Source: an uncultured Prevotellaceae bacterium (GTDB taxonomy: Bacteria; Bacillota_I; Bacilli_A; RFN20; CAG-288). Taken from it: a stretch of 64,000 bases of DNA. The stretch is taken from assembly GCA_963653505.1 (NCBI GenBank), contig CAVJWL010000002.1, positions 2,638 through 66,637 on the forward strand. The letters are read 5' to 3'. Of this stretch, positions 34,185 to 56,500 are shown one piece after another. Position numbers and translations under genes: made by a program. The notes beneath the pieces are model-generated. The model made no database searches. It was not told where the DNA came from and saw only the letters and a list, made by a program, of their open reading frames with translations. Numbering within the stretch: the first letter of the stretch is position 1; each line of letters begins with the position of its first letter.

Positions 34185-34298
34185 AGTTGCCTCCTAAAAA
34201 CGAATAGTATTTTAACAATAAAAAAAATACATTAATAGACTTGAAATCAAAAAAGAGTTTTCAAAAAAAATCCAAGACGGTTAAATCTTGGACATTTT

Positions 34299-35110
34299 TC
34301 ATAAATCAACAATACTCTCAAGCATGAAGACATCGATGAATTAATTATCGATAGTAAGAGAAGAATCAAAATCAACAATACTCTCAAGCAAATTGCTGAA
34401 AATAACGTAAATAAATTAGTAAGAGAAGAATCAAAATCAACAATACTCTCAAGCAATAATGACGGTCTTATACAAGGTTTTTTAGTAAGAGAAGAATCAA
34501 AATCAACAATACTCTCAAGCGAAATTGGAACGGAAAATGGATTTATTCAAGTAAGAGAAGAATCAAAATCAACAATACTCTCAAGCTTAATGACGTCTCG
34601 ATTACCTTAGGCGCTGTAAGAGAAGAATCAAAATCAACAATACTCTCAAGCATAATTTTCTTTAAAACCCGAATACAAACGTAAGAGAAGAATCAAAATC
34701 AACAATACTCTCAAGCAGTTGACTGGTGGAACTGTAGCAGGTGGTTGTAAGAGAAGAATCAAAATCAACAATACTCTCAAGCTAGTCTTCTTCTTCAGTG
34801 ATTGCGAACACAGTAAGAGAAGAATCAAAATCAACAATACTCTCAAGCATGATCATATACAAGACAACGGTCTAAAAGTAAGAGAAGAATCAAAATCAAC
34901 AATACTCTCAAGCTAATCTTCTTCTTCTGTTATCGCAAAGACAGTAAGAGAAGAATCAAAATCAACAATACTCTCAAGCAGTGCGAAAATAGCATTAAAA
35001 TTAAAGTACGTAAGAGAAGAATCAAAATCAACAATACTCTCAAGCGCCGTTGTTCGTCAAAATCACACATATTCGTAAGAGAAGAATCAAAATCAACAAT
35101 ACTCTCAAGC
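34299..35110 (-). CRISPR. Type II-A CRISPR array: 12 full 36-bp repeats plus 1 degenerate terminal repeat, 12 spacers of 29-30 bp
   Basis: Plus-strand repeat GTAAGAGAAGAATCAAAATCAACAATACTCTCAAGC starts at 34354, 34419, 34485, 34551, 34616, 34681, 34747, 34813, 34878, 34944, 35010 and 35075. A degenerate partial copy (...TCATAAATCAACAATACTCTCAAGC) lies at 34299-34323. The array is adjacent to csn2 and transcribed on the minus strand with the cas operon, so the degenerate repeat is leader-distal. Confidence 0.95.
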
Positions 35111-35159
35111 CTCAAAACATGCAGTTTTTAGCTTGTTTTTTCATTGATATAGCCAAATT

Positions 35160-35855
35160 TTAACATTTTTTGCTTTTTTCTTCAATGTGAAGCTCACATA
35201 AATCAGAATCTATTCGAATGATGAATTCTTCATCAGTTTTATAGGCTGGTATGTGGCTTGATATTATCAAAAAGAAAATTTCTTGATGTCGCATTTCAGA
35301 AATAAAATATTCAAATTCTTTTTTAGACAGATAATCACATAGATTATGAAGAATTATGACTTTAAACTTAAATACATCAACCAATATCTTTATCTTTTCG
35401 ATAAGGGTAATTAAAAAATCTTCGTTATCTCCACCATATCCAACAGAAAAAGCATTTAAAAAAGTTAACAAACTCATTTCATCATCAAATTTTAATCTTA
35501 AAGGGAAATCATAAGTGATAGATGATAAATAATCATTTATTTTATTTATCAATTCTAAATAAGTTTCATTTTCTGAAACACTTATTTCACCTGCCACTTC
35601 CTTTTGAATAGTAAGATTTAGTTTCTTTTCATCAAAGGTGATAAATGAAAGATTATCTATAAAATAAATAAACTTTGTTGCATTTAATTCTATAGCATTA
35701 TCGTATAAATGAAATGCATCAATAGAATCAGTTCCGCTTAGCAATTGAAAAATGGTATTTCGATACATAAAAGAGTTTTCGATACTTATGTAGTAAAAGA
35801 TGCATTCGCTAAACTCGATTTCTTTTTCAATGTTAGGGTGCTTTAAAACCATCAT
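35160..35855 (-). CDS. csn2: CRISPR-associated protein Csn2 (short, ~230-aa form)
   Basis: 231 aa, overlaps the cas2 stop by 4 nt, and lies between cas2 and the array. This is the canonical II-A position, and the size matches short-form Csn2. Confidence 0.8.
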   Translation of the reverse strand: MMVLKHPNIEKEIEFSECIFYYISIENSFMYRNTIFQLLSGTDSIDAFHLYDNAIELNATKFIYFIDNLSFITFDEKKLNLTIQKEVAGEISVSENETYLELINKINDYLSSITYDFPLRLKFDDEMSLLTFLNAFSVGYGGDNEDFLITLIEKIKILVDVFKFKVIILHNLCDYLSKKEFEYFISEMRHQEIFFLIISSHIPAYKTDEEFIIRIDSDLCELHIEEKSKKC

Positions 35856-36175
35856 AATTCTATATACCTTTGATCAGTATCAACAACATCAGTTTCAAAG
35901 TCACCTAAGAAATAATCGATGTTGCTAAACTGTTTTTCAGTGACAGTAATCATTGAAATCAATCCTTGTTTTGGAAGATGTGTTTTGATTGAATTAGACA
36001 AATTTTTAACAGCCGATTCATTAATCGATAATTTGATGTATATCGATTCTTGGAACATAATAAATCCTTGTTTCTTTAAGAATTTTACAAACTGTCGATA
36101 TTCTCTTCTTTGTGCAGCAGTTTCCACTGGCAAATCAAACATTAATAATGATCTCATATATCTATAATTGCTCAT
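35852..36175 (-). CDS. cas2: CRISPR-associated endoribonuclease Cas2
   Basis: 107 aa with a type II Cas2-like sequence (LLMFDLPVETAAQRREYRQFVKFLKKQGFIMFQESIYIK). Confidence 0.9.
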   Translation of the reverse strand: MSNYRYMRSLLMFDLPVETAAQRREYRQFVKFLKKQGFIMFQESIYIKLSINESAVKNLSNSIKTHLPKQGLISMITVTEKQFSNIDYFLGDFETDVVDTDQRYIEL

Positions 36176-41480: not shown

Positions 41481-41507
41481 CTTGAAATATGCTCCTTTTG
41501 ATTGTAG

Positions 41508-41583
41508 AATAGACTTGTAAATCAACAATACAAGTTCAAGTAAACAATTGTCTAAATCCACACCTGCGTTGGCAGGTTTTTTT
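41508..41583 (+). ncRNA. candidate tracrRNA (anti-repeat + intrinsic terminator), divergent from cas9
   Basis: Plus-strand GACTTGTAAATCAACAATACAAGTTCAAGTAAACAATTGTCTAAATCCACACCTGCGTTGGCAGGTTTTTTT. AAATCAACAATAC is a perfect 13-nt complement to crRNA-repeat positions 9-21, and UCAAG pairs with repeat positions 2-6 with an SpCas9-like bulge. It ends in hairpin CCTGCgttgGCAGG plus T7. Confidence 0.55.
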
Positions 41584-41730
41584 ATTACACTATTATTATA
41601 AATCAAATTTATGCAATTTCTCCAAACTTTTATAGTTTAGTTCAAACTAGGCTAATAATTTTTTTCTAAAAAGTAACTTAAAATATTTTAAAAAAACATT
41701 TATAATTCAAAAACATTACGAGGTCATTTT

Positions 41731-44188: not shown

Positions 44189-46045
44189 ATGTTCACCAAA
44201 AAAATCGGACTTTATTTATTGAGTTTTACATTACCATTTATGATTGGTAGTTGTAATAGAAATAATGATACCAACGTAAATAAAAAATATGTAATAACCA
44301 TCGCCACCGATGAAGACATTCTAAGAAGCTCATCAACTTTTTTAAAGCAGTTTTCAACCAATCATCCAAACTACTCTCTCAATGTAAAAATCTACAATGA
44401 AGACTATCTTAAAAATTTGATCAAACATAATTCCGTTACAGAAGACATCTATTTAGTTGATGATTTATTGACCATCAATTTATCAAAAAATAATTTCGTA
44501 GATTACACCCTTAGTGAATCTTTTGGAAATTATTCTGGATATATCAAAAATTACATCAAAGCTGAAGATGAAAATATCTATTGCTTACCTGGAATTGGAT
44601 CAACATATTCTTACTGTTTAAATGTTGATTTATTTGAAACATGCAATCTTACAATTCCTTCAACAATCACCGAACTTAAAGACTTTGCTTCAAATAGTAA
44701 AAATTATGCAATTCCCTTTGGAACTTCTTTTTCAGATGAGAATTATTATTTAGATGCATTTTTCCAAATGACAATTCCGGGATTTTTCTCCAGTGTCAAA
44801 GGATCTAATCTCTTCAATGAATTTGTTAGCGGTAAAACTCAATTATCAACTTCATCATTAGCAACAACATTTGAAAATTATTTGAATAATATTTACCTTC
44901 TCACTTCAAATGAATTCTATGATGATTCAATAACATCAGAACAAAGCATTGAAAATTTCATCAATGGAAAACAATTCATACTTTCAATCAGTCCTAAATT
45001 CGATTTTGAAGAATATTATAAGAATAATAACTGTACCTTCAATTATGTCTATTATCCATTTTTAGGTTCAAAGAAAAACAATGGATGGATTTGTGCAAAG
45101 TCAAGTTTTTATTTAGCGACAAATAAAAACACCTATAAAAATAAAACTGAAGAAATCAATGAATTTGTAAAATATTATTCAAGCTTAGACGGACAACAAA
45201 AATTATTGATCGATGAATACGGAAATAAAAAGAATAATTATTTTTCATACCTATCAATGTTTGAAGCAAATGATGAGGAAAAAGATAAATACATAAAAGA
45301 GACTATTAAACAATCACATGTATATTTAGTCGACAAAATAGGTCCAACATTCGAAGAATCAGCCGAAAATATTGCTCAATATGCTAATGATGAAATTTCA
45401 ATTTCGACATTATTAGAAGATTTCGATTACAACAATCAAATCCAAATCAACTATAAAAATAATAAATATACAATCGAAGAATTGAAAAGATATTCAACAT
45501 CCTCAGAAGATGATTTAATCAATACCTTAAAAATCATCTCCTATTCAATCAAGAACAAACTATCTTTAGATACGATAATCATCGATGAAAGTTTTTTAAG
45601 ATATCCAATCCTAGATGGAACTATCTATGAAAGTGAATTGAACAGCATTTTCGATAACAAACTAGAAATGCAATATGTCAATATCAAAGGAAGTGAATTC
45701 AAAAAAATCATCGACTATAATGCAACTGTTAATGATAGTTTTTCAAAAAATGAAAGAGAAAGTTATGATATTCAGAAACTTTTCAATTTGTATGACAAAA
45801 TTTCTGTTAGAAATGTAAATCTTTCCTTTTTATCAAATGATAAATTTTTACTTTGCGGTGCTAGTTTTACAAGTGGAACACCAAAACAATACTTACTCGG
45901 AAACAAAAAGGAAATAGAAGACGATAAAACATATTATTTAGCTCTTCCTATCGAAATAATAGAGAGTAACCAATTTGAATTAGTAAAAGGAAATACATTC
46001 AATTTACTCGATGTATTTCTTGAATATTTGAGGTCAATAAGATGA
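44189..46045 (+). CDS. lipoprotein, unknown function
   Basis: 618 aa with a signal peptide and lipobox-like FMIGSC. Asn/Tyr-rich. 4-nt overlap with the downstream LRR gene. Confidence 0.45.
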   Translation: MFTKKIGLYLLSFTLPFMIGSCNRNNDTNVNKKYVITIATDEDILRSSSTFLKQFSTNHPNYSLNVKIYNEDYLKNLIKHNSVTEDIYLVDDLLTINLSKNNFVDYTLSESFGNYSGYIKNYIKAEDENIYCLPGIGSTYSYCLNVDLFETCNLTIPSTITELKDFASNSKNYAIPFGTSFSDENYYLDAFFQMTIPGFFSSVKGSNLFNEFVSGKTQLSTSSLATTFENYLNNIYLLTSNEFYDDSITSEQSIENFINGKQFILSISPKFDFEEYYKNNNCTFNYVYYPFLGSKKNNGWICAKSSFYLATNKNTYKNKTEEINEFVKYYSSLDGQQKLLIDEYGNKKNNYFSYLSMFEANDEEKDKYIKETIKQSHVYLVDKIGPTFEESAENIAQYANDEISISTLLEDFDYNNQIQINYKNNKYTIEELKRYSTSSEDDLINTLKIISYSIKNKLSLDTIIIDESFLRYPILDGTIYESELNSIFDNKLEMQYVNIKGSEFKKIIDYNATVNDSFSKNERESYDIQKLFNLYDKISVRNVNLSFLSNDKFLLCGASFTSGTPKQYLLGNKKEIEDDKTYYLALPIEIIESNQFELVKGNTFNLLDVFLEYLRSIR

Positions 46046-49000
46046 AGAATTTAACAAAGCTGATGACAATTATTTTATCGTTTTCTTTTCTACCTTTAAC
46101 TTCTTGTGAAAATAAAACGAATTCAAATAGTCAATCAATATCAAACCAAAAAATAACTGGTTATGAAATAATCAATCCCTTTAGCCAAGTATATGGAGTC
46201 GGTGAAATCATAGATTTCGATTCTATAACTTTTGAAATCAAAGATAATAATGGAAATATAACTACCATCAAAGGATTTGATAGCAGATTGAATATCGAAG
46301 GGGGCGATACAGAAAATGAAGGTAAACACACAATTAAAGTCATATACCTCAATTCAACTTATGAATTTGAATACACAGTAAAACAATTTTATGTCACTTT
46401 GAATTTCAATGGCGGAACATATGAAGGTAAGGAAGAAATCAAACTTCCTTTATACAATAAAACCTGTGATTTATCTAAGGTAATTCCAACCTATTCAAAC
46501 GAAGAAAATAAATACTTCAGCGGTTGGTTTTACAATATAGAAGCTACTGATAGAGTTACTCAATTCCAAGTTGAAAAAAACATCAAAAGCTCAACTGATA
46601 TTACAATCTATGCTGGTTATGATTTGAAGTATGATGACAAGTTCTATTACACAATCAACGAAAAAGAAAACACCTGTACCATTGTATCCATCAATTTTGA
46701 AACATATTTTGTGAATTATCTCTTCGATTCAGAATTAGTGATTCCTAAGACAATCGAAAGCTATCCAGTAACCGAAATTGGAGCTGATTTTTTCGTTCAA
46801 AAAACCATCAATGAAGATGGTACAGTCGAAGAATATGATTACGCCGATGTTATGATAGATTTGACAAAAATTTCCTTTGAAGAAGGATCTCAAGTAACAA
46901 AAATCGGAAATAGAGCATTCAGAGGACTCACATATCTAGAAGAAATAACTTTCCCAGAATCATTAGCCATCATCGGAGAAGAAGCTTTTAAAGAAACAAA
47001 TTTATCTGGAGAACTTATTTTAAATAAAAATCTTGTAAAAATCGGTAAAGGGGCTTTCAAATCTTTAAAATTAGAAAAAATATCCTTTGAAAAAGATAGC
47101 AAGATAAAAGTCATCGGTGAAGAATGCTTCAGTTATAACGAATTTTTATATTCAATCAAATTACCAGAAGGATTAGAAGAAATTAGAGAAAACGCCTTCT
47201 ATAAATGCGATGACTTATCAAGTATAAAATTGCCATCAACCCTCAAATACATTTCAGGATCTACCTTCATGTATATGGGAAGTTTAAATAAAATTGAAGT
47301 TGCTGAATCAAATCAAAATTTCACATCAATCGATGGTAACCTTTATTCAAAAGATAAACACAAATTGATCAGATATTGCTACACAAACGATGAAACTGAA
47401 TTCACAATTCCAAGTGAGGTCAATCAAATCTCTGATGCTGCTTTTGGTATTTTTGATGATTATAAAACATTAAAAAAGTTGAACATTCCCGAAGGAGTCC
47501 AATACATCGGCAATCAGGCATTTTCAGGATGCACATTCGATTTAAATCTTCCATCAACACTTGAGAGTTTTTCACTCGAAGCATTCTCAGGCTATGAAGG
47601 AAAAGAAATTAATGTCAGTACAGCCAATGAAAAATATCATTCAAAAGATGGCATCATCTATTCCCACGATTACAAAACTTTATATTTATGTCCAAAATCA
47701 TATGAAAAAAAGAATTTTGTCTTAGATGATAAAGTTGAAATCATTTCAAGAAACGCAATCTATGATTGTAAGAATATTGAAACTATCACCATATCTAAAA
47801 ATTCAGCATTGAAAAAGATATATACGAACGGATTATTATTCACAAATTTAGATAATTTAAAATTTGTTAAGATTGAAAAAAATGAACTTATCGATTTTTC
47901 GTTTGAATCATTTTTCAGTGCTACTAATGTCATCAACGAAAACTTCGAAGTAATCTTTAAAGATGAAACACATTATAATAACTTTTTAGCTAAACTCAAA
48001 TCCTTACCGCATCCAAAATATTATGATGATATCATCGACTTAGTTTATACCCACATAAATTTGGATTCTGAAGTCAAAGACAAATCTTTAACTTTAATTT
48101 CCAATGCAGTCGGCTTCACAGTAGATGAATTCAATTCTATTATCAATGAAAATTCCTTACTTGAAGTATTGAGTTTTGGAAGCGAAAATTCTAAAAATGC
48201 ATTATCATTAGTCTCTTATGTTTTAAAAGAAGATAAATATAATGAAGCAGAGAAGAAGTACGCTATAAATTTCCTAAAACGTATTTATTTTTCGATGTAT
48301 CTCAAAGCAAAAGAATCAACCTATAACATTTATTCAGCTTATGCAAATCTTAAAGCCTACTATGATAATTTTGATGCATCGATTCAAAAAGAAATAAAAG
48401 AATATTTAAACTTGATACGTGTGCTCTGCGACTTTGATAAAACCACTGAGATGAAGGAATCTATTTATCAAGAAATTTTAACCTTCCCACTTTCAAAAGA
48501 AAGCTTTGATACTGAAAAGTTCTTAGAATTGAAAAGTAAAGTTAATAAATACGAATTATTTAAAATTCCAGTTGCAAGTACTGTATATAATAGATACCAA
48601 CTTTTATATTGCAATTACAAAATTGCAAGTATAATAGATAAAAATCTAGAAGAATGTTCAGATTCAGAATTGCTCGATATCTATAATGTGATGTATAGCA
48701 CTGAAGATGATTTCATGAGTATCAGCGACTATTTAAACAGTCCCTATACTCAAACACCATATAGAAGCAAATATATTAATCGGCTTGAAGATTACAATAA
48801 TTTTATAAATAAATTCCAAACTGTAATATCTGATTTGATTGAGAAATATATCAATAAACTTGAGACCTTTGACTTCACAACTTTCAATTATGATACTTAC
48901 AACAATTTCTATTCAAACTATATCACAATAATCTACAAATACTGGTCAATATTCACTCCCCATTTCAAAAGCAACCAATATTTCTCAGTTTCTGATACAG

Positions 49001-49653
49001 AAAAGATAATCAATACAATCTGCACGAGTATCGATATCTATAATTTCAACAATAAGGATTTTACCAATATGAATGATAAAGAAATCATTCAAACCTACAA
49101 ATTATCTCAATCATTAGACCAAGTTATTTACAATAAATATGCAACCGATTATGGCTTCACCGATGATGAATATAATGTTCTCATCGATAATCTCTATGGA
49201 TTTAGTACTTATAATACAAAAAAAGACAACATTAAAACAAAATATCAACAAGTGATTCAAAAGATCGAAAACGAAATCAACAACGTTGAAATTTCTTCAT
49301 CATTATCACAAGAAATGGTCACTAATCTTTATAATCGCGTTACAATAATAGATAGTAATATAAATAAAATCACAGATTTCAGCCAAGACGCTAAACTGAA
49401 ATTCTGTTCAATTATGATTTACTACACCATTAAAAAAATCTTTGATACTTATCCAACAGTGACAAATGAGAACAAATACAGTATCAGACAAATGATATAT
49501 GGTTATTACAACATCAATGATTATACTTTCCGTATTGGAGCAAAAGGCTTCATTGATGAATTCTTGGATGGAACAATCGATGATACCTTTAACTACAACA
49601 CTACACTCATTCCAAATTACAGCCAATACGAAGAGTTATTAACAAAAATTTAG
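46042..49653 (+). CDS. BspA-type leucine-rich-repeat (LRR_5) surface lipoprotein
   Basis: 1203 aa with signal + lipobox LTSCEN. Repeated ~23-aa LRR units (IGNRAFRGLTYLEEITFPESLAIIGEEAFKETNLSGELIL...). Long C-terminal helical/Tyr-Asn-rich region. Confidence 0.7.
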   Translation: MKNLTKLMTIILSFSFLPLTSCENKTNSNSQSISNQKITGYEIINPFSQVYGVGEIIDFDSITFEIKDNNGNITTIKGFDSRLNIEGGDTENEGKHTIKVIYLNSTYEFEYTVKQFYVTLNFNGGTYEGKEEIKLPLYNKTCDLSKVIPTYSNEENKYFSGWFYNIEATDRVTQFQVEKNIKSSTDITIYAGYDLKYDDKFYYTINEKENTCTIVSINFETYFVNYLFDSELVIPKTIESYPVTEIGADFFVQKTINEDGTVEEYDYADVMIDLTKISFEEGSQVTKIGNRAFRGLTYLEEITFPESLAIIGEEAFKETNLSGELILNKNLVKIGKGAFKSLKLEKISFEKDSKIKVIGEECFSYNEFLYSIKLPEGLEEIRENAFYKCDDLSSIKLPSTLKYISGSTFMYMGSLNKIEVAESNQNFTSIDGNLYSKDKHKLIRYCYTNDETEFTIPSEVNQISDAAFGIFDDYKTLKKLNIPEGVQYIGNQAFSGCTFDLNLPSTLESFSLEAFSGYEGKEINVSTANEKYHSKDGIIYSHDYKTLYLCPKSYEKKNFVLDDKVEIISRNAIYDCKNIETITISKNSALKKIYTNGLLFTNLDNLKFVKIEKNELIDFSFESFFSATNVINENFEVIFKDETHYNNFLAKLKSLPHPKYYDDIIDLVYTHINLDSEVKDKSLTLISNAVGFTVDEFNSIINENSLLEVLSFGSENSKNALSLVSYVLKEDKYNEAEKKYAINFLKRIYFSMYLKAKESTYNIYSAYANLKAYYDNFDASIQKEIKEYLNLIRVLCDFDKTTEMKESIYQEILTFPLSKESFDTEKFLELKSKVNKYELFKIPVASTVYNRYQLLYCNYKIASIIDKNLEECSDSELLDIYNVMYSTEDDFMSISDYLNSPYTQTPYRSKYINRLEDYNNFINKFQTVISDLIEKYINKLETFDFTTFNYDTYNNFYSNYITIIYKYWSIFTPHFKSNQYFSVSDTEKIINTICTSIDIYNFNNKDFTNMNDKEIIQTYKLSQSLDQVIYNKYATDYGFTDDEYNVLIDNLYGFSTYNTKKDNIKTKYQQVIQKIENEINNVEISSSLSQEMVTNLYNRVTIIDSNINKITDFSQDAKLKFCSIMIYYTIKKIFDTYPTVTNENKYSIRQMIYGYYNINDYTFRIGAKGFIDEFLDGTIDDTFNYNTTLIPNYSQYEELLTKI

Positions 49654-49665
49654 TTCAGGAGACTT

Positions 49666-52600
49666 ATGCCTAATTCAAATACAAAAACATTCACTATCAA
49701 CAAAGCAACTTTAACTGTCATCAAATATAACGAAGAAAAAATCAAAGACATTTCCTTCGTAGATTTTTTTAGTGAAAATTTAAATCCTAAAAAACTCAAT
49801 CTAGAAGAAGATAAATACAATTATGAAATATTATCTTCCTTCATCAAAGTCGCTAGTGATAAACAATGTTATGTATTTAAGTCCAATAAAACTAAAATCA
49901 CTTACAGTTTTTACATTCTCTATACTGATGAGCCAAACATCATCAAAGTAGAAGTCAGAAAAGAAGAAAATAATATCTATACCGATGAATTATATGATTA
50001 TTTAACCGGTGTCTATTCAAGAAAATATCTCTTCGATTTGATATCAAACGAACTGAAAGAAGATAATTTGAATTCATATATCATCATGATCGACCTTGAT
50101 AATTTCAAAGGTATCAATGATAATTACGGACATTTGATTGGTGACTACTGTTTAAAAGAAATTTCCTTAAAACTAAAGAATGTCTTCCATAATTGCATCC
50201 TCGGTAGATATGGCGGCGATGAGTTTTTAGTGTACATAAAAAATGTGACTGATCTAGAACTTGAAAAACTCATAAAAAGTGCATTAAAAGTAAGCTATAC
50301 CTACAAACACGCAAACAATAAACATATCGTCACTTGTTCTTTAGGTATTTCAAAAAAGATATCTAAAAGAAAAAATATAAACGACCTTATTGAAGAAAGC
50401 GATAAAGCCTTATATCAAGCTAAAAAAAGAAAGAAAAACAGCGCCAAAATATATGAAGGTGCCATCTATTACGGCTACGAAAATAAGAAAAATAAGATCA
50501 ACAATAAAAACAAAAACGATCAAAGTGCAACTCTCTTTCAAGAAGAATTACAAAAGAAGAGAAGACATTTCACAATCAATCTCATCATCATTATGGTTTT
50601 GACAATAGCAACAATCTCCAGTTTTGATTTCATTTACAATTATAGAGTGAACGAACAAACTTCTGAAATAGCAAAAGAAAATATGTCAAGCTACTCTTCT
50701 GCTATTTCAAAACAAATATCCACAAAAATAAATGAATCATTTACAAAGCTTCAAAACAGTCAAGAACTATTGAACGAAATCAATGAATCAGAAGAAGATG
50801 CCTTATTGAATTCAATGATTCATAGTCTAAAAAAGAACACTCTTGTCAACACCCCAGGATTATTATTAGAAAATGGTGATGTATATTTTTCAGAAAATAA
50901 CATTGTAAATATCGGAAATAATTCTTTTGCAAAAAAACTTATCACTGATAAAGAAAAAGCCGTTTCAAAAATTTCTTCAACCTCAAATCAAGAGTATATT
51001 TTGATAGGATATCCATATTACAAAAATACAAGTTCGACCTATGATGAATCTAACTTAGATATTTATGGAATCATCTCTGCTATCACTCCTGATGATTTTG
51101 CCTCTTCATTATTTGAAACTATCGATGATTCTTATTATGTAACAATCATCGAAAATACTGGTATTAAAATCTGTGATAACAACTCATCAAGCGTGACATT
51201 TTTTAAGAAATATTACAATTTCTTCAATTATTTCAGTGAAAACAAATTGAATTCACAATTGAAGATTATTGATGAACAACTAGAAACAACCGAAGATAAA
51301 TGCAGTATTATAACTTTATATAATGTCAATTATTTCGTTTATTCAAAATCTATCGAAATTGAAAATTGGGATATTATATTCATCGTTCCATATACATTCA
51401 TCTTCCAACAATTTGGAAATGTCATTTTATTCTCTCTTATTTTATTCAATGCTATTTGTATTTTATTCTTATTATTTGTTATCTTCGCCTTCTCATATTT
51501 CAACAAGACCAAAAAGAAAGCTTTATTAGCAGATTATTACGATACAACCATCGATTCTATTAACCAAAAAAGATTCACACTCGATGCAGATACCATTATC
51601 AAAAATGAAAAAAAGAATGAAATCTACATCGCCTATTTGAATATAAAAAGATTTAGATATTTCTACAATACCTTTGGAAATGAAGCGACGGATATCTTAC
51701 TCATCATCTCACATTATTTCCAAGAACACTTAAAAGGTGTTGAAATGTTATCAAGAGAATATACAGATAGATTTATTCTCTTATTGCTCGGCCAAGATAG
51801 AAATACTATCTACACAAGAATCAAATTATTAGCAAATAATATCAATGAAATCGAAGACATAAAAAAATACGGACATATAAGCTTGAACATCGGTCTATAC
51901 AAAGTCGAAGATGGAAAAGGAAAAATCCACATCGCTTTAGATAGAGCTAAAAAAGCTTGTGAAGCAACTAGCCAAGGAAGTGAGAACTTCAGCATAAAAT
52001 TCTTCGATAGGAAAATGTTAGATGGTGAAGAATTAGAATCATATATCGAACAAAATCAAGAAGAAGCCCTTAGAAATGATAGATTCCAAGTATTCTACCA
52101 AGGAAAGTATTCTTTACACGATAATAAATTCGCTTCATGTGAAGCACTAGTCAGATGGAAAGATGAAGAAAAAGGATTCATCAACACTCAAAAATTCATC
52201 GATGTCTTTGAAGAAAACGGCTTTGTAATCAAACTAGATTTATTTATCTTTGAAAAAGTATTAAAAGATATCAGAGAATATATCAACCAAGGAAAAGAAC
52301 CACTACCAGTCAGTGTCAATGTATCAAGAAGACATTTTGATAATCAAAACTTCTTCTTCGAATATGAGAAATTGATGAAAAAATATGGTATCGAAGGAAA
52401 ATATATCGAATTTGAAATCACAGAATCCATCATTTTAAATAACGAATTCAATTTGACTGAAACAATAAGACAAATTCATTCAATAGGTTCGAAAGTATCA
52501 ATCGATGATTTCGGAAGTGGATTTTCTAACTTCTCAATGATCAATCATGTCAATTATGACATCTTGAAAATAGATAGAAAACTCTTATTCGGAAAGAACG

Positions 52601-52812
52601 GATTCGATGAAGATTCTCGAAAGATTTTAAAGAACATCGTCACCTTGAATAAGGATATGAATAAAGTAGTAGTCTGTGAAGGCGTTGAAAAGAAAGAAGA
52701 ATCAGATTATTTAAAATCGATAGGGTGCGATTTGATTCAAGGATATTATTATTCAAAACCACAGCCAAAAGAAGAATTCATCCAGTTGATTAAAAATACA
52801 AACAATAAATAA
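49666..52812 (+). CDS. composite c-di-GMP protein: GGDEF - 2 TM flanking extracytoplasmic sensor - degenerate GGDEF - EAL
   Basis: 1048 aa. N-terminal GGDEF with intact RYGGDEFLVY; TM helices at ~aa 300 and ~590; a second GGDEF-like domain lacking GG(D/E)EF; a C-terminal EAL domain (EALVRW..., DDFGSGFS, CEGVE). Confidence 0.85.
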   Translation: MPNSNTKTFTINKATLTVIKYNEEKIKDISFVDFFSENLNPKKLNLEEDKYNYEILSSFIKVASDKQCYVFKSNKTKITYSFYILYTDEPNIIKVEVRKEENNIYTDELYDYLTGVYSRKYLFDLISNELKEDNLNSYIIMIDLDNFKGINDNYGHLIGDYCLKEISLKLKNVFHNCILGRYGGDEFLVYIKNVTDLELEKLIKSALKVSYTYKHANNKHIVTCSLGISKKISKRKNINDLIEESDKALYQAKKRKKNSAKIYEGAIYYGYENKKNKINNKNKNDQSATLFQEELQKKRRHFTINLIIIMVLTIATISSFDFIYNYRVNEQTSEIAKENMSSYSSAISKQISTKINESFTKLQNSQELLNEINESEEDALLNSMIHSLKKNTLVNTPGLLLENGDVYFSENNIVNIGNNSFAKKLITDKEKAVSKISSTSNQEYILIGYPYYKNTSSTYDESNLDIYGIISAITPDDFASSLFETIDDSYYVTIIENTGIKICDNNSSSVTFFKKYYNFFNYFSENKLNSQLKIIDEQLETTEDKCSIITLYNVNYFVYSKSIEIENWDIIFIVPYTFIFQQFGNVILFSLILFNAICILFLLFVIFAFSYFNKTKKKALLADYYDTTIDSINQKRFTLDADTIIKNEKKNEIYIAYLNIKRFRYFYNTFGNEATDILLIISHYFQEHLKGVEMLSREYTDRFILLLLGQDRNTIYTRIKLLANNINEIEDIKKYGHISLNIGLYKVEDGKGKIHIALDRAKKACEATSQGSENFSIKFFDRKMLDGEELESYIEQNQEEALRNDRFQVFYQGKYSLHDNKFASCEALVRWKDEEKGFINTQKFIDVFEENGFVIKLDLFIFEKVLKDIREYINQGKEPLPVSVNVSRRHFDNQNFFFEYEKLMKKYGIEGKYIEFEITESIILNNEFNLTETIRQIHSIGSKVSIDDFGSGFSNFSMINHVNYDILKIDRKLLFGKNGFDEDSRKILKNIVTLNKDMNKVVVCEGVEKKEESDYLKSIGCDLIQGYYYSKPQPKEEFIQLIKNTNNK

Positions 52813-52823
52813 AGGAACTTACA

Positions 52824-53468
52824 ATGAAAGTTTTATTATTAAATGGTTCAATCCACGCAAAAGGAAATACCTATACAGCATTAGAAGAAATTGGAAAAGA
52901 ACTCCTAAAACAAGGAATCGATTATGAAATATTTCAAATAGGAGTAAAACCTATTCAAGATTGTACCAATTGTAGACAATGTAAAAAAACAGGATATTGT
53001 ATTTATAACGAAGATACCCTAAACGAATTTCTCAAAAAAGCCAAAGAAGCTGATGGATACATCTTCGGATCGCCTGTTTATTACGCTCATCCCAGTGGAA
53101 GAATCCTGTCATTTTTAGATAGAGCCTTTTACTGTAAAAGCGATATCTACCACTTTAAACCCGTCGCCTCAGTAGTCGTAGCAAGAAGAGCAGGAACCTC
53201 AACCTCATTCGATGTTCTAAATAAATATGCTACGATTGCCGATATGATAATCGTAGGTTCTTCTTATTGGAATAATGCCTTCGGAGCCACTACAGATGAA
53301 GCTAAAAATGATGCTGAAGGAATGCAGACAATGCGAAATTTAGCTAGAAATATGGCTTATGTATTAAAACTGATAAAATTAGGAAAAGAAAACGGAATTA
53401 ATCCACCTGAAATAGAAAAAAGCAATTATACAAACTTCATGAGAAACGATTTAATTAAAGAAAATTAA
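52824..53468 (+). CDS. iron-sulfur flavoprotein / NADPH-dependent FMN reductase family
   Basis: 214 aa with flavodoxin-like N-terminus MKVLLLNGSIHAKGNTY and compact Cys cluster CTNCRQCKKTGYC (Cx2Cx2Cx5C), typical of the ISF family. Confidence 0.65.
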   Translation: MKVLLLNGSIHAKGNTYTALEEIGKELLKQGIDYEIFQIGVKPIQDCTNCRQCKKTGYCIYNEDTLNEFLKKAKEADGYIFGSPVYYAHPSGRILSFLDRAFYCKSDIYHFKPVASVVVARRAGTSTSFDVLNKYATIADMIIVGSSYWNNAFGATTDEAKNDAEGMQTMRNLARNMAYVLKLIKLGKENGINPPEIEKSNYTNFMRNDLIKEN

Positions 53469-53551
53469 TTTGGTAATTTTATATGTTTATATATTCAATA
53501 AAGTGATAAAATTTTGTTGCATAATATCTATAGAAAAATGGAGGACGAGCA

Positions 53552-56500
53552 ATGATCGACAAGGAATATATCAAAATAAATTTAGCAACAAGTAAAACCT
53601 TCTCTTATTTAGAGTATCATACCGACTCCATTATCAAAGTAAATAATCCAAATGTATATTATACCTCTTTTTCGTTTGTTCAAAAAATCGAAATCGACAA
53701 TCAAACTGAAAACGATTATCAAGATTTGATAATCCATTTTGAGTTTTCAAACAATATATTTAAGAGTGAAGATTTCCATATCGGATTCACACCAAAAAGA
53801 AATAAATATCTGATAAAAATCGATCCAAAAATCAAGATAGATGACACAAGACTATATAACATCAACGGAATCTCATCTTGCACAATCTTTATCTCTTTAA
53901 GAGATCCAAACAATAACACTAAAGAATTGTGTTCAAATACAAAAACAATCAGCATCCTTCCATTCAATCAAGCGACTAATGACATCTATAAAGCACCTTT
54001 ATTATTTTCAAAATACTGCATCACAGATTTCTCACAAATAATAAATATCCAACATGCAGCCAATAATGAAAAAGCAAAATTGAATGGATTTGAAACAGAT
54101 TGTATAATCGGATATCAAAACGAAGATACAAACGAAATCATCAAAGAAGTAACTTCGATATATAGAGCCATCCATAACACTGGAAATATTACTTATTCAA
54201 ACCCACCGAATTCAAGTGAATTAGTTCAAAACATCAGAATGCCAAATACAGTTTTAAAAACCAAACTTGGAACTTGTTTAGACATATCATTGTTATTCTG
54301 TTCAGCCCTTCTTCAAGTCGGACTTCATCCGATATTGATTTTGACTCAAGGTCACGCCTTTGCTGGATGTTTTTTACATGACTATGATTCTTTCAACGGA
54401 TATTATGAAACGAATCCAAATGTCATCTTCTCCGATGCAGTAAGCCAAGAAAAAAACATCATTCTTTTTGAATGCACAACAGCCACAAATAATTCTTCAG
54501 TACCATTTTCTGAAGCAATGAAAATAGCAAATGAAACATTGAGAGCATATCGTGGATTCTTTATAGCTATTGATATCTATATGGCTCAACACTCCATCTT
54601 CAAACCTATTCCAATAGCAAATGATGATGGCAATGTCGATTTCACAATCCCAATGACTAAATTAAAAGAAGAAGAACTCGAAGAAATCGAAGAATATCAA
54701 GGAACCCCAATAGCCGAAGTAGATACAACTGATCGTTTCACAACTTGGGAAAAGAAATTATTAGATTTATCTACATCTAATAAATTGGTAAATTTCCGAT
54801 TTTCAAAAGATAATTCCAACCATTCAATAATCATCCCACCAAATGGAAAAGGAAAAGAAATCTTTGAGTTTTTAAAACACAAAGATGGAACCTTTACACT
54901 TTCAAATATCAAAAACGTATTGCAAGATAATGAAGGTAATATTGGAAATATTGAAAGTGAAATATTTGAAAAAGTAGCCTCAAATCAACTTCAAAAAGGA
55001 ACTCTTCTTATGACAGGAACTGTCAAAACAATGAAGAGCTTAATAAAAAAAGATAATGAATCAAGAGAAGAAACAGGCTCCCCAACCCTCTACTTATGCA
55101 TCGGTTTATTGACTGGAAACGATTCCAATGGAAGAAGCAATAAAGAAATTAAAGCCCCATTTTTATTACTGCCAATAAAAGTTAGCAAAAATAGATACGG
55201 AGATGATTTCACCGCTACCTATGACATTGAAGAAATGATGATAAATAAGACATTCTTCGAATACTATAAGATGAAAAAAGGCAGTGATTACGATAATCTC
55301 TACACCGTTTCATCCCACAACCAATTTGAAGACATCATCGCTTCATTAAAAGAGAATCACAGCGGTGATATAAAAGTCGATGAAAATGTTTGTTTCATCG
55401 CAAATTTCTTATTCACTCATATGGTAATGTGGCAAGATATCATCGATAGAAAAGAAGTCTTAAGAAAGAATGTCATCATCCAATCACTTTTGGAAAACAA
55501 ATCACTTATCAACGATGATAAAATCCAAGTAGACAATGTCGATGAATTAGATACGATGAAAGATTTTGCAGCACCATTACCTTATGATTCAACTCAACTG
55601 AGAGCGATAAGAGAATGTGCTAAAGGAAATTCGTTCATTCTAGATGGTCCTCCAGGAACTGGAAAAAGTCAAACGATTGTCAATATGATTGTCAACTCTT
55701 TCTATAATGGAAAGACAATACTTTTTGTTGCAGAAAAACAAGCCGCTCTTGAAGTAGTCAGACAAAGATTAGCAAGTTTAGGCTTAGATCAATTTGTCTT
55801 GCAACTATATTCATCAAAGACGAACAAGCAAGCTTTTTTCAGTCAACTATCCAAGGCGATGGATTATGGAAAAAGAAGCTCTGACGAAGATTTTTTAACA
55901 ATATGCGATAACATCGAAAAAGAAAAGAAAATCATAAACGATGAACTTAGAAGGTTACATTCACACAAAAAGCAATTCTATTCATTATATGAAGCAATAA
56001 CTAGAGAATTAGCAACTTCAGAAATAAAGCTGAATTTTGATATTTCACAAGAATTTTTAAGCGATTATAATTCTGAAAAAGATGTCAAAATCAGAAATAT
56101 CATTCATCGAATAGAAAAAGTGAACAGTGAATTCGATGGAGAAAAAATTGAAAACTATCTTTCAATTATCAATTTCAAAAGATACACATTCAATGACCAA
56201 AATACTCTAGTCACATCTTACACAAAGCTTTCTAAAAATTTAATTGAATTAAAAAATAAATTCGAACAACTAAAAGAAACTTTGAATGAACCAAGCTTAC
56301 AATTAAAAATCAACAATGTGGAATTCATCATCGGAATATTAAAACTATTGATTGAAAAAGAAGTCAAAATCGATTGTTTTTCAAAACCTGATTTAGAAAC
56401 ATATTTCAACAATATGAATGTTGTAATGCCTAAAATTTCAACACTTGCCAAATTAGAAAGTTCCATATCTAAAAAATACAATATCCACGGAATCGAACAA

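What the first reader, a model, noticed from the sequence alone, without database searches (positions are those of the whole stretch)
34783..34943. Two spacers that are synonymous-codon variants of the same protospacer
Spacer 8 (34783-34812, TAGTCTTCTTCTTCAGTGATTGCGAACACA) and spacer 10 (34914-34943, TAATCTTCTTCTTCTGTTATCGCAAAGACA) differ at 6 of 30 positions. All six fall at positions 3, 15, 18, 21, 24 and 27, a strict period of 3. On the reverse complement both translate to VFAITEEED in the same frame. The two protospacers therefore lie in homologous protein-coding genes of two diverged targets, and every difference is silent. This implies either repeated acquisition from the same PAM-adjacent site of related phages or plasmids, or primed-like re-acquisition after escape. 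It also shows that crRNA polarity equals the coding sense.
Basis: seen in the sequence. Interest (0 to 1): 0.75.

Follow-up and report, generated by a model that had tools for sequence, protein, structure and literature searches.

The report
Two CRISPR spacers, one conserved target site
Two spacers in a type II-A CRISPR array of an uncultured gut Bacilli bacterium were taken from the same spot of a conserved protein-coding gene in two diverged relatives of an invader, possibly a small single-stranded DNA phage; this is a clear but ordinary outcome of how Cas9 systems pick spacers.

Summary
Spacers 34783-34812 (A) and 34914-34943 (B) match at 24/30 positions in the same register and strand. All six differences fall at + positions 3, 15, 18, 21, 24 and 27. 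Read on the minus strand, both encode VFAITEEED, so every change is synonymous.

The array belongs to a complete type II-A locus (cas9-cas1-cas2-csn2, tracrRNA, leader, terminator) transcribed on the minus strand. B is therefore the younger spacer, and the crRNA has coding sense.

Divergence inside the array is excluded: all 12 repeats are identical. A conspecific strain has an identical leader and trailer but entirely different spacers.

The best explanation is two independent, PAM-anchored acquisitions from the homologous site of two deeply diverged relatives of one mobile element. A second such pair, 23/30 in the same register, occurs between two other strains, so priming is not needed.

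No protospacer was found in any collection searched, so the target and PAM remain unknown. One lead: a conspecific array carries spacers matching Microviridae major-capsid genes at 27-29/30, and VFAITEEED resembles a conserved C-terminal capsid motif.

This is a known phenomenon and a clean example. Interest is modest.

The parts
34783..34812 (-). Spacer A, the older of the pair and 5th from the leader. crRNA sense is TGTGTTCGCAATCACTGAAGAAGAAGACTA, encoding xVFAITEEED(Y/*).
34914..34943 (-). Spacer B, the younger of the pair and 3rd from the leader. crRNA sense is TGTCTTTGCGATAACAGAAGAAGAAGATTA. It encodes the same peptide as A, with six synonymous differences.
34288..35110 (-). CRISPR array with 12 identical 36-nt repeats (crRNA sense GCTTGAGAGTATTGTTGATTTTGATTCTTCTCTTAC) and 12 spacers of 29-30 nt. 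A degenerate terminal repeat at 34288-34323 keeps only the first 21 nt.
34263..34292 (-). Terminator-like hairpin plus T-run (CCAAGATTTAACCGTCTTGG followed by eight T) at the trailer end of the array, read on the minus strand.
   Evidence: sequence reading; identical in L004
35111..35159 (-). Leader between csn2 and the first repeat. It is identical in the conspecific strain L004.
35160..35855 (-). csn2
   Evidence: TIGR01866, E 7.5e-26
35852..36175 (-). cas2
   Evidence: TIGR01573
36162..37043 (-). cas1 (type II)
   Evidence: TIGR03639, 298.6 bits
37047..41482 (-). cas9. The mechanical ORF runs to a TTG at 41606. The likely start is the ATG at 41482 (MENKKYYLGLDIGTDSVG), which gives about 1477 aa.
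   Evidence: (TIGR01865, 767.8 bits, match starts at residue 48)
41505..41583 (+). Putative tracrRNA. The anti-repeat is AAATCAACAATAC (41519-41531), an AAG bulge, then TTCAAGT (41535-41541). It is complementary to the first 21 nt of the minus-strand repeat and ends in the terminator CACCTGCGTTGGCAGG followed by seven T. The 5' end is not determined.
   Evidence: conserved in L004 and in L005, whose Cas9 is 76% identical

Best explanation
A and B are two separate immune memories. The type II-A adaptation machinery (Cas1-Cas2-Csn2, with Cas9 choosing the PAM) captured them at different times, A first and B later. Both come from the same PAM-anchored 30-nt site of one conserved protein-coding gene, carried by two deeply diverged relatives of one mobile element.

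The protein segment VFAITEEED is under strong purifying selection, so the site, and presumably its PAM, persists while synonymous positions drift. Each new relative therefore offers the same preferred prespacer.

The A-crRNA would mismatch a B-type target at spacer positions 4, 7, 10, 13, 16 and 28. Position 28 is 3 nt from the PAM, inside the seed, so each spacer probably protects only against its own variant and both are kept.

The most likely source, at about 45%, is the C-terminal conserved motif R-[IV]-F-A-x-x-(acidic run) of the major capsid protein VP1 of a gokushovirus-like Microviridae phage. A genome of only 4-5 kb offers few PAM sites, which makes repeat hits at one site likely.

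Shown: the homology, register, phase and synonymy of the pair; the locus type and orientation; fast array turnover; and a second homologous pair.

Inferred: independent acquisition; a conserved PAM; lack of cross-protection (from SpCas9 seed rules); and the identity of the target.
For: The pair is a clear outlier. It matches at 24/30 at shift 0 on the same strand, against a background maximum of 18/30 for 96 spacers. All six differences are third-codon and synonymous (P about 1e-3 x 0.07).

Divergence did not happen in the array. All 12 repeats are identical. Strain L004, whose Cas9 is 95% identical, has an identical leader and trailer but shares no spacer with the window, so spacer turnover far outpaces point mutation.

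The system is complete and correctly oriented: cas9, cas1, cas2 and csn2; the tracrRNA anti-repeat pairs only with the minus-strand repeat in the canonical Cas9 architecture; and there is a degenerate terminal repeat plus terminator.

A second pair exists between strains. L004 spacer 4 and L062 spacer 11 match at 23/30 in the same register and strand, encoding YSHSELDELR and YSQSDLNELL, with 5 of 7 differences at third positions. The same site can therefore be captured independently without a pre-existing related spacer.

The Microviridae lead rests on three points:
- L062 spacers 18 and 19 match Microviridae VP1 genes at 27-29/30.
- A relaxed codon pattern for the peptide found 36 IMG/VR sites, and 12 of them are the VP1 C-terminal motif RIFA[IV]TDE[ED]ED (Pfam Phage_F, E 1e-99).
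- Other VP1s read RVFATAETSDDKYW or RVFAVIDEDIHHIY at this site.
Against: No protospacer for A or B was found. The synonymous-codon pattern gave 0 hits in IMG/VR and 0 in GTDB species genomes. It gave only 3 high-GC chance hits in JGI metagenomes.

BLAST of the spacers and of the whole array against INPHARED phages and PLSDB plasmids gave only chance-level hits. The target, the 'two separate hosts of the gene' and the shared PAM are therefore untested.

For the Microviridae sub-claim:
- The loci were selected by the pattern itself, and their best in-register identity is only 23/30.
- The 12 IMG/VR VP1 hits have I and D where the spacers encode V and E.
- No other window spacer shows a Microviridae signal above shuffled controls.
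- The padded peptide matched no family in a Pfam/PHROG scan.
Confidence: 0.8

Rival explanations
1. Primed re-acquisition. A phage escaped spacer A by mutation. Residual Cas9 activity guided by A at the mismatched site then stimulated capture of a new spacer, which happened to be the mutated copy of the same protospacer.
For: The order fits: A is older and B is nearer the leader. [quoted passage not shown]
Against: Six differences, covering every 3- or 4-fold degenerate third position, indicate long divergence rather than escape. Escape mutants usually carry single seed or PAM changes.

A-guided cleavage would cut 3 bp from the PAM, inside the protospacer. That destroys the exact 30-nt prespacer B copies (inference from the Cas9 mechanism).

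One seed mismatch plus five others should abolish cleavage (inference from SpCas9).

The cross-strain pair L004-4 / L062-11 arose without any related spacer in the same array.
Confidence: 0.08
2. Both spacers come from two paralogous copies of the gene within a single mobile element, or from a mixed infection, and were captured in one episode rather than from successive diverged invaders.
For: Nothing direct. It cannot be excluded because no protospacer was found.
Against: An unrelated spacer lies between A and B, so they were added in separate integration steps. Paralogues with saturated synonymous divergence and an identical peptide in one small element would be unusual. The cross-strain pair shows that diverged variants of such sites circulate in different samples.
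Confidence: 0.08
3. A repeat-spacer unit was duplicated inside the array, and the two copies then drifted apart by mutation.
For: Duplications within arrays are known. Similar spacers within one array have been discussed as possible duplications (PMC10438810).
Against: Neutral drift would not place 6 of 6 changes in one codon phase, all of them synonymous. The spacers have diverged by 20% while all twelve 36-nt repeats remain identical. The leader and trailer are identical between strains that share no spacer.
Confidence: 0.01

Closest known systems
Type II-A CRISPR-Cas (Streptococcus pyogenes / S. thermophilus CRISPR3 type)
   Same: The gene order is cas9-cas1-cas2-csn2, followed by a leader and an array of 36-nt repeats with 29-30-nt spacers. 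The tracrRNA lies upstream of cas9 on the opposite strand, and its anti-repeat bulge AAG(U) resembles the SpCas9 guide. The repeat begins GCTTGAGAG, compared with GTTTTAGAG in S. pyogenes.
   Different: The Cas9 is longer, about 1477 aa. Its nearest named relatives are only 45% identical: MAGs labelled Bacilli bacterium and Candidatus Enterosoma. The PAM is unknown, and none of it has been tested experimentally.
Similar or near-identical spacers within one CRISPR array, and skewed spacer acquisition at a few PAM sites
   Same: Two spacers in one array derive from the same protospacer position. The literature interprets such pairs as sequential acquisition that helps cope with phage diversity (PMC10438810). 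Typing tools cluster such spacers routinely (PMC6267562).
   Different: Reported cases usually differ by one or two nucleotides. Here the pair is 20% diverged and every change is synonymous, so it must come from distinct phage lineages rather than from recent escape mutants or sequencing variants.
Primed adaptation in type II-A systems (S. mutans P42S)
   Same: An older, partly matching spacer precedes a newer spacer against the same element (PMC8265633).
   Different: The divergence here is far beyond escape mutations.
CRISPR targeting of Microviridae (gokushovirus-like) major capsid genes
   Same: A conspecific array (L062) has spacers matching conserved VP1 motifs at 27-29/30. The A/B peptide resembles the VP1 C-terminal motif.
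   Different: For A and B themselves, no Microviridae genome matches better than 23/30. This link is a lead, not a demonstrated match.

Membership tests
Type II-A CRISPR-Cas locus | Cas9 effector with RuvC and HNH domains | tested here: met
   TIGR01865, 767.8 bits; relatives carry the Pfam domains Cas9_REC, HNH_4, Cas9_RuvC and Cas9_PI.
Type II-A CRISPR-Cas locus | Adaptation genes cas1 and cas2 plus the subtype marker csn2 | tested here: met
   TIGR03639, TIGR01573 and TIGR01866 are all above their curated cut-offs.
Type II-A CRISPR-Cas locus | Repeat-spacer array adjacent to the cas operon, with a leader at the cas-proximal end | tested here: met
   12 identical 36-nt repeats, a degenerate last repeat, and a leader conserved in L004.
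Type II-A CRISPR-Cas locus | tracrRNA with an anti-repeat complementary to the repeat | tested here: met
   there are 13 + 7 bp of complementarity with a bulge, followed by a terminator, and the element is conserved in L004 and L005. A window-wide duplex-energy scan did not single this site out, so the call rests on sequence architecture and conservation. Expression and processing were not testable here.
Independent acquisitions from homologous protospacers of diverged targets | Same register and strand, with differences confined to synonymous codon positions | tested here: met
Independent acquisitions from homologous protospacers of diverged targets | Two protospacers located in two different genomes, each flanked by the same PAM | tested here: inconclusive
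   no true protospacer was found in IMG/VR, JGI metagenomes, GTDB genomes, INPHARED or PLSDB.
Primed adaptation (type II-A) | The older spacer directs Cas9 cleavage of the partly matching target | not testable with these tools
   Unlikely by inference: one mismatch 3 nt from the PAM plus five others.
Primed adaptation (type II-A) | A related older spacer is present in the same array before the new one | tested here: met
   A is nearer the trailer than B. However, the cross-strain pair lacks this feature.
Intra-array spacer duplication | Differences distributed without regard to codon phase, with flanking repeats diverging at a similar rate | tested here: not met
   all six differences are in one phase and synonymous, and the repeats are 100% identical.
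Spacer derived from Microviridae major capsid gene (VP1) | Near-exact nucleotide match to a Microviridae genome | tested here: not met
   The best in-register identity is 23/30, found at sites selected by the search pattern itself. BLAST of A and B found no VP1 hit.
Spacer derived from Microviridae major capsid gene (VP1) | The encoded peptide fits a conserved VP1 motif, and the host lineage demonstrably targets VP1 | tested here: inconclusive
   The motif fit is loose. The conspecific L062 spacers 18 and 19 match VP1 at 27-29/30. Other window spacers show no signal.

The most novel reading that the evidence does not exclude
A and B, with the VP1-matching spacers of a conspecific strain, record a long-running contest between an uncultured, low-GC gut Bacilli lineage and several co-circulating gokushovirus-like Microviridae. 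In this reading Cas9 repeatedly samples the same few PAM sites in the most conserved capsid motifs of a 4-5 kb ssDNA phage. That would give a host assignment for a group of gut Microviridae whose hosts are largely unknown. It would also be a natural example of CRISPR memory tracking synonymous drift at one site.
Probability: 0.4. Interest if true: 0.45.

Novelty: new member of a known kind. Interest (0 to 1): 0.3.

Why it matters
The pair is an unusually clean natural record. The phase and synonymy of the differences show, without any database hit, that the spacers come from a coding gene, which strand is coding, and that the two sources had diverged deeply before capture.

The same site is hit again and again, within one array and between strains. 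This agrees with strongly skewed, PAM-anchored acquisition in type II-A systems.

If the Microviridae link holds, it gives a host for some gut gokushoviruses. None of this changes the current understanding of CRISPR adaptation.

Tried and rejected
1. Protospacer searches all failed.
- The synonymous-codon pattern GTNTTYGCNATHACNGARGARGARGAY was absent from the rest of the window, from IMG/VR and from GTDB genomes. JGI metagenomes gave 3 chance hits in contigs of 44-59% GC.
- Relaxed patterns gave 36 IMG/VR hits at 23/30 or less and 13 chance hits in genomes. One of these, in a Bacteroides contig at 24/30, is antisense to a real gene.
- BLAST of the spacers and arrays against INPHARED and PLSDB gave only chance-level hits for the window.
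- Five other spacers, and the pattern for the second pair, gave nothing in IMG/VR.

2. Peptide-level searches of the 5.8-billion-protein set were not feasible.
- The minimum query length is 40 aa.
- Two chimeric VP1-flank profiles, validated locally, returned no candidates. By my estimate of the expected number of chance 7-mer matches, the word index appears too sparse for such short matches, so I treat these results as uninformative.

3. The padded peptide matched no family in Pfam or PHROGs.

4. A Microviridae Rep hit (PV067924, 21/23) was rejected. It is antisense, gapped, and lies on the HUH motif.

5. An apparent tblastx hit of window spacer 6 to VP1 was rejected. It is out of frame and only 18/30.

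6. An ungapped scan and a duplex-energy scan did not single out the tracrRNA. It was found by reading the cas9 upstream region and confirmed by conservation.

7. The PAM could not be derived. Flanks of the L062 spacer hits share only a T at position +5, and those phages are not the true targets.

Full report
**Observation**

The region is a CRISPR array. It has twelve identical 36-nt repeats at 34354-35110 (+ strand GTAAGAGAAGAATCAAAATCAACAATACTCTCAAGC). A thirteenth, degenerate repeat lies at 34288-34323. The repeats enclose twelve spacers of 29-30 nt.

A script recount confirms 24/30 identity, with differences at + positions 3, 15, 18, 21, 24 and 27. On the reverse complement, frame 2 reads GTG TTC GCA ATC ACT GAA GAA GAA GAC for A and GTC TTT GCG ATA ACA GAA GAA GAA GAT for B. 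Both give VFAITEEED, so all six changes are synonymous.

- Given six differences in 30 nt, the chance that all fall in one phase is 1.06e-3.
- The chance that these six third-position changes are all synonymous adds a factor of 0.074.
- All pairs of 96 spacers from six related arrays were compared at every shift and on both strands. The background never exceeds 18/30, whereas A/B scores 24/30 at shift 0 on the same strand.
- The + strand frame 1 also places the differences at third positions (*SSSSVIA[N/K]T). It starts with a stop codon and needs a replacement, so it is the poorer reading.

**Context and orientation**

Upstream on the minus strand lie cas9, cas1, cas2 and csn2. All four score above the NCBIfam cut-offs, so this is a type II-A locus. 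The mechanical cas9 ORF starts at a TTG at 41606. The HMM match begins at residue 48, and the ATG at 41482 gives the canonical MENKKYYLGLDIGTDSVG start.

Four independent features show that the array is transcribed on the minus strand:
- the direction of the cas operon, with a 49-nt leader between csn2 and the first repeat;
- the degenerate repeat at the far end, which keeps only the first 21 nt in minus-strand sense;
- a hairpin plus T-run immediately after it on the minus strand;
- a tracrRNA-like element on the + strand just upstream of cas9, at about 41505-41583.

The tracrRNA anti-repeat, AAATCAACAATAC-AAG-TTCAAGT, pairs with GCTTGAGAGTATTGTTGATTT of the minus-strand repeat. It has a bulge like that of the S. 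pyogenes guide and ends in a GC hairpin with seven T. It is conserved in two relatives, one with only 76% Cas9 identity. A window-wide duplex-energy scan did not single the site out, so the call rests on sequence architecture and conservation.

It follows that B (third from the leader) is younger than A (fifth), with one unrelated spacer between them. The crRNA has the sense of the inferred coding strand. For a DNA-cutting Cas9 it has no known consequence.

**Where the divergence arose**

It did not arise in the array. All twelve repeats are identical, while the two spacers differ by 20%.

A conspecific strain (L004, GCA_963640635.1, Cas9 95% identical) has the same repeat and a leader and trailer identical to the window over the roughly 200 nt compared. 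It does not share a single spacer with the window. Spacer turnover is therefore much faster than point mutation here. Neutral drift would also not respect codon phase. Duplication followed by drift is excluded.

**Depth of divergence**

All four 3- or 4-fold degenerate third positions (Val, Ala, Ile, Thr) differ, as do two of the five two-fold positions. Synonymous sites are near saturation while the peptide is unchanged. This is what distinct lineages of a gene under strong purifying selection look like. It is not what escape mutants look like.

In crRNA numbering the mismatches are at positions 4, 7, 10, 13, 16 and 28 of 30. Position 28 is 3 nt from the PAM. By SpCas9 rules (established knowledge, not tested here), A would not cleave a B-type target. 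Each spacer therefore covers its own variant.

**A second pair**

Two further conspecific contigs were reached through the 90% Cas9 cluster. Spacer 4 of L004 and spacer 11 of L062 (GCA_963654945.1) match at 23/30, again at shift 0 on the same strand. They encode YSHSELDELR and YSQSDLNELL in crRNA sense, and five of the seven differences are at third positions.

These two spacers sit in different strains, and neither array holds the other variant. Homologous sites of diverged targets are therefore captured independently in this species, with no related spacer needed beforehand. That is the simplest reading of A/B as well. It also argues against priming. In addition, cleavage guided by A would cut inside the very protospacer that B copies (inference from the Cas9 mechanism).

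**The target**

No protospacer was found.
- The synonymous-codon pattern is absent from the rest of the window, from IMG/VR and from GTDB species genomes. It hits only three high-GC contigs in JGI metagenomes, at 19-24/30.
- BLAST of the spacers and the whole array against INPHARED and PLSDB gave only chance-level hits.
- Other spacers of the window and of L004 also have no exact 20-22-mer in IMG/VR.
- The mobilome of this lineage is simply not in these collections.

The host is an uncultured low-GC (31%) Bacilli bacterium. More distant relatives of the locus occur in human gut metagenomes, for example a Hadza sample. The nearest named Cas9s, at 45% identity, are from MAGs labelled Bacilli bacterium and Candidatus Enterosoma.

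**A lead on the target**

A relaxed pattern ([VIM][FL]A[VIM]T followed by four acidic residues) found 36 sites in IMG/VR. Twelve are the same place: a conserved motif, RIFA[IV]TDE[ED]ED, about 30 residues from the C-terminus of the Microviridae major capsid protein. This was confirmed with Pfam Phage_F, E 1e-99, on contigs of about 4.3 kb that also encode a Rep protein.

Taken alone this is weak, for four reasons:
- the loci were chosen by the pattern;
- in-register identity is 23/30 at most;
- the other window spacers give no Microviridae signal above shuffled controls;
- the padded peptide matched no family in Pfam or PHROGs.

It gained weight when the array of L062 was compared with INPHARED. 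Its spacer 19 is the antisense of the conserved VP1 motif YFFVPNRLI. It matches bajarodmic virus 500 and Jodiemicrovirus-1 at 29/30, a pig-faeces Microviridae at 28/30 and a chicken microvirus at 27/30. The adjacent spacer 18 matches VP1 of bajarodmic virus 1 at 27/30.

The species is therefore exposed to gokushovirus-like phages, and its CRISPR system targets their capsid gene. Other VP1s read RVFATAETSDDKYW or RVFAVIDEDIHHIY at the C-terminal site, so a Val and a variable acidic run are within the family's range. The base before the Val codon is T in both spacers, which is compatible with the Arg (CGT) or Asp (GAT) seen there. I put the VP1 origin of A/B at about 45%. A 4-5 kb genome offers few PAM sites, which would make repeat hits at one site unsurprising. 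That argument does not discriminate strongly.

**What is known**

Similar spacers within one array, read as sequential acquisitions that help cope with phage diversity, have been described (PMC10438810). Spacer-typing tools cluster such spacers as a matter of routine (PMC6267562). Priming in type II-A systems has been reported (PMC8265633; PMC7105378).

The present case is a clean, more diverged example of the first phenomenon in a new, uncharacterised type II-A locus. It is not a new kind of thing.

**Verdict**

- The target and the PAM are unresolved.
- Interest is modest at 0.3. The Microviridae host link is the part most worth following.

Noticed in passing
L062:17662-17757 (GCA_963654945.1, contig CAVKCD010000019.1; conspecific strain): Two adjacent trailer-side spacers match Microviridae major capsid (VP1) genes. 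Spacer 19 is the antisense of the YFFVPNRLI motif and matches bajarodmic virus 500 and Jodiemicrovirus-1 at 29/30. Spacer 18 matches bajarodmic virus 1 at 27/30. This is a possible host link for gut gokushovirus-like phages.
   Followed up: partly
L004:10518-10547 and L062:17202-17231: This is a second pair of homologous, diverged spacers, found in two different strains. They match at 23/30 in the same register and strand and encode YSHSELDELR and YSQSDLNELL. Five of the seven differences are at third codon positions. The target is unknown.
   Followed up: partly
window 41505-41583 (+): A tracrRNA-like element lies just upstream of cas9 on the opposite strand. It has an anti-repeat with a bulge and an intrinsic terminator, and it is conserved in L004 and L005. 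No Rfam family reached its gathering score anywhere in the window.
   Followed up: yes
window 41483-41606 (-): The longest cas9 ORF begins at a TTG and adds about 42 residues that overlap the tracrRNA region. The ATG at 41482 gives the canonical Cas9 N-terminus. Database entries for this protein cluster (1519-1524 aa) appear to carry the same over-extension.
   Followed up: partly
window 34185-35175 compared with L004:10220-11545 and L062: The leader and trailer are identical between strains, yet the arrays share no spacer with the window. L004 and L062 share only their trailer-most spacer (AACGATTTTGAGGGCTTCTTCATCAGTCG). Turnover of the array is very fast. The L063 contig has only one spacer, which may be an assembly collapse.
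   Followed up: partly
L058:16344-18420 and L060:16349-17304: Related species, with Cas9 55-56% identical, keep the first 16 nt of the repeat (GCTTGAGAGTATTGTT, the part that pairs with tracrRNA) but differ in the rest. In L058 the locus sits next to thyA-dfr as in the window, whereas in L060 the neighbouring genes differ. Their 46 spacers (32 and 14) match nothing in INPHARED (only the L058 array was tested).
   Followed up: partly
window 46042-59383 (+): There are large ORFs of 1203, 1048 and 1943 aa downstream of the locus. In the syntenic L062 locus, the first two carry LRR_5 and GGDEF/EAL Pfam hits. They were not examined further.
   Followed up: no
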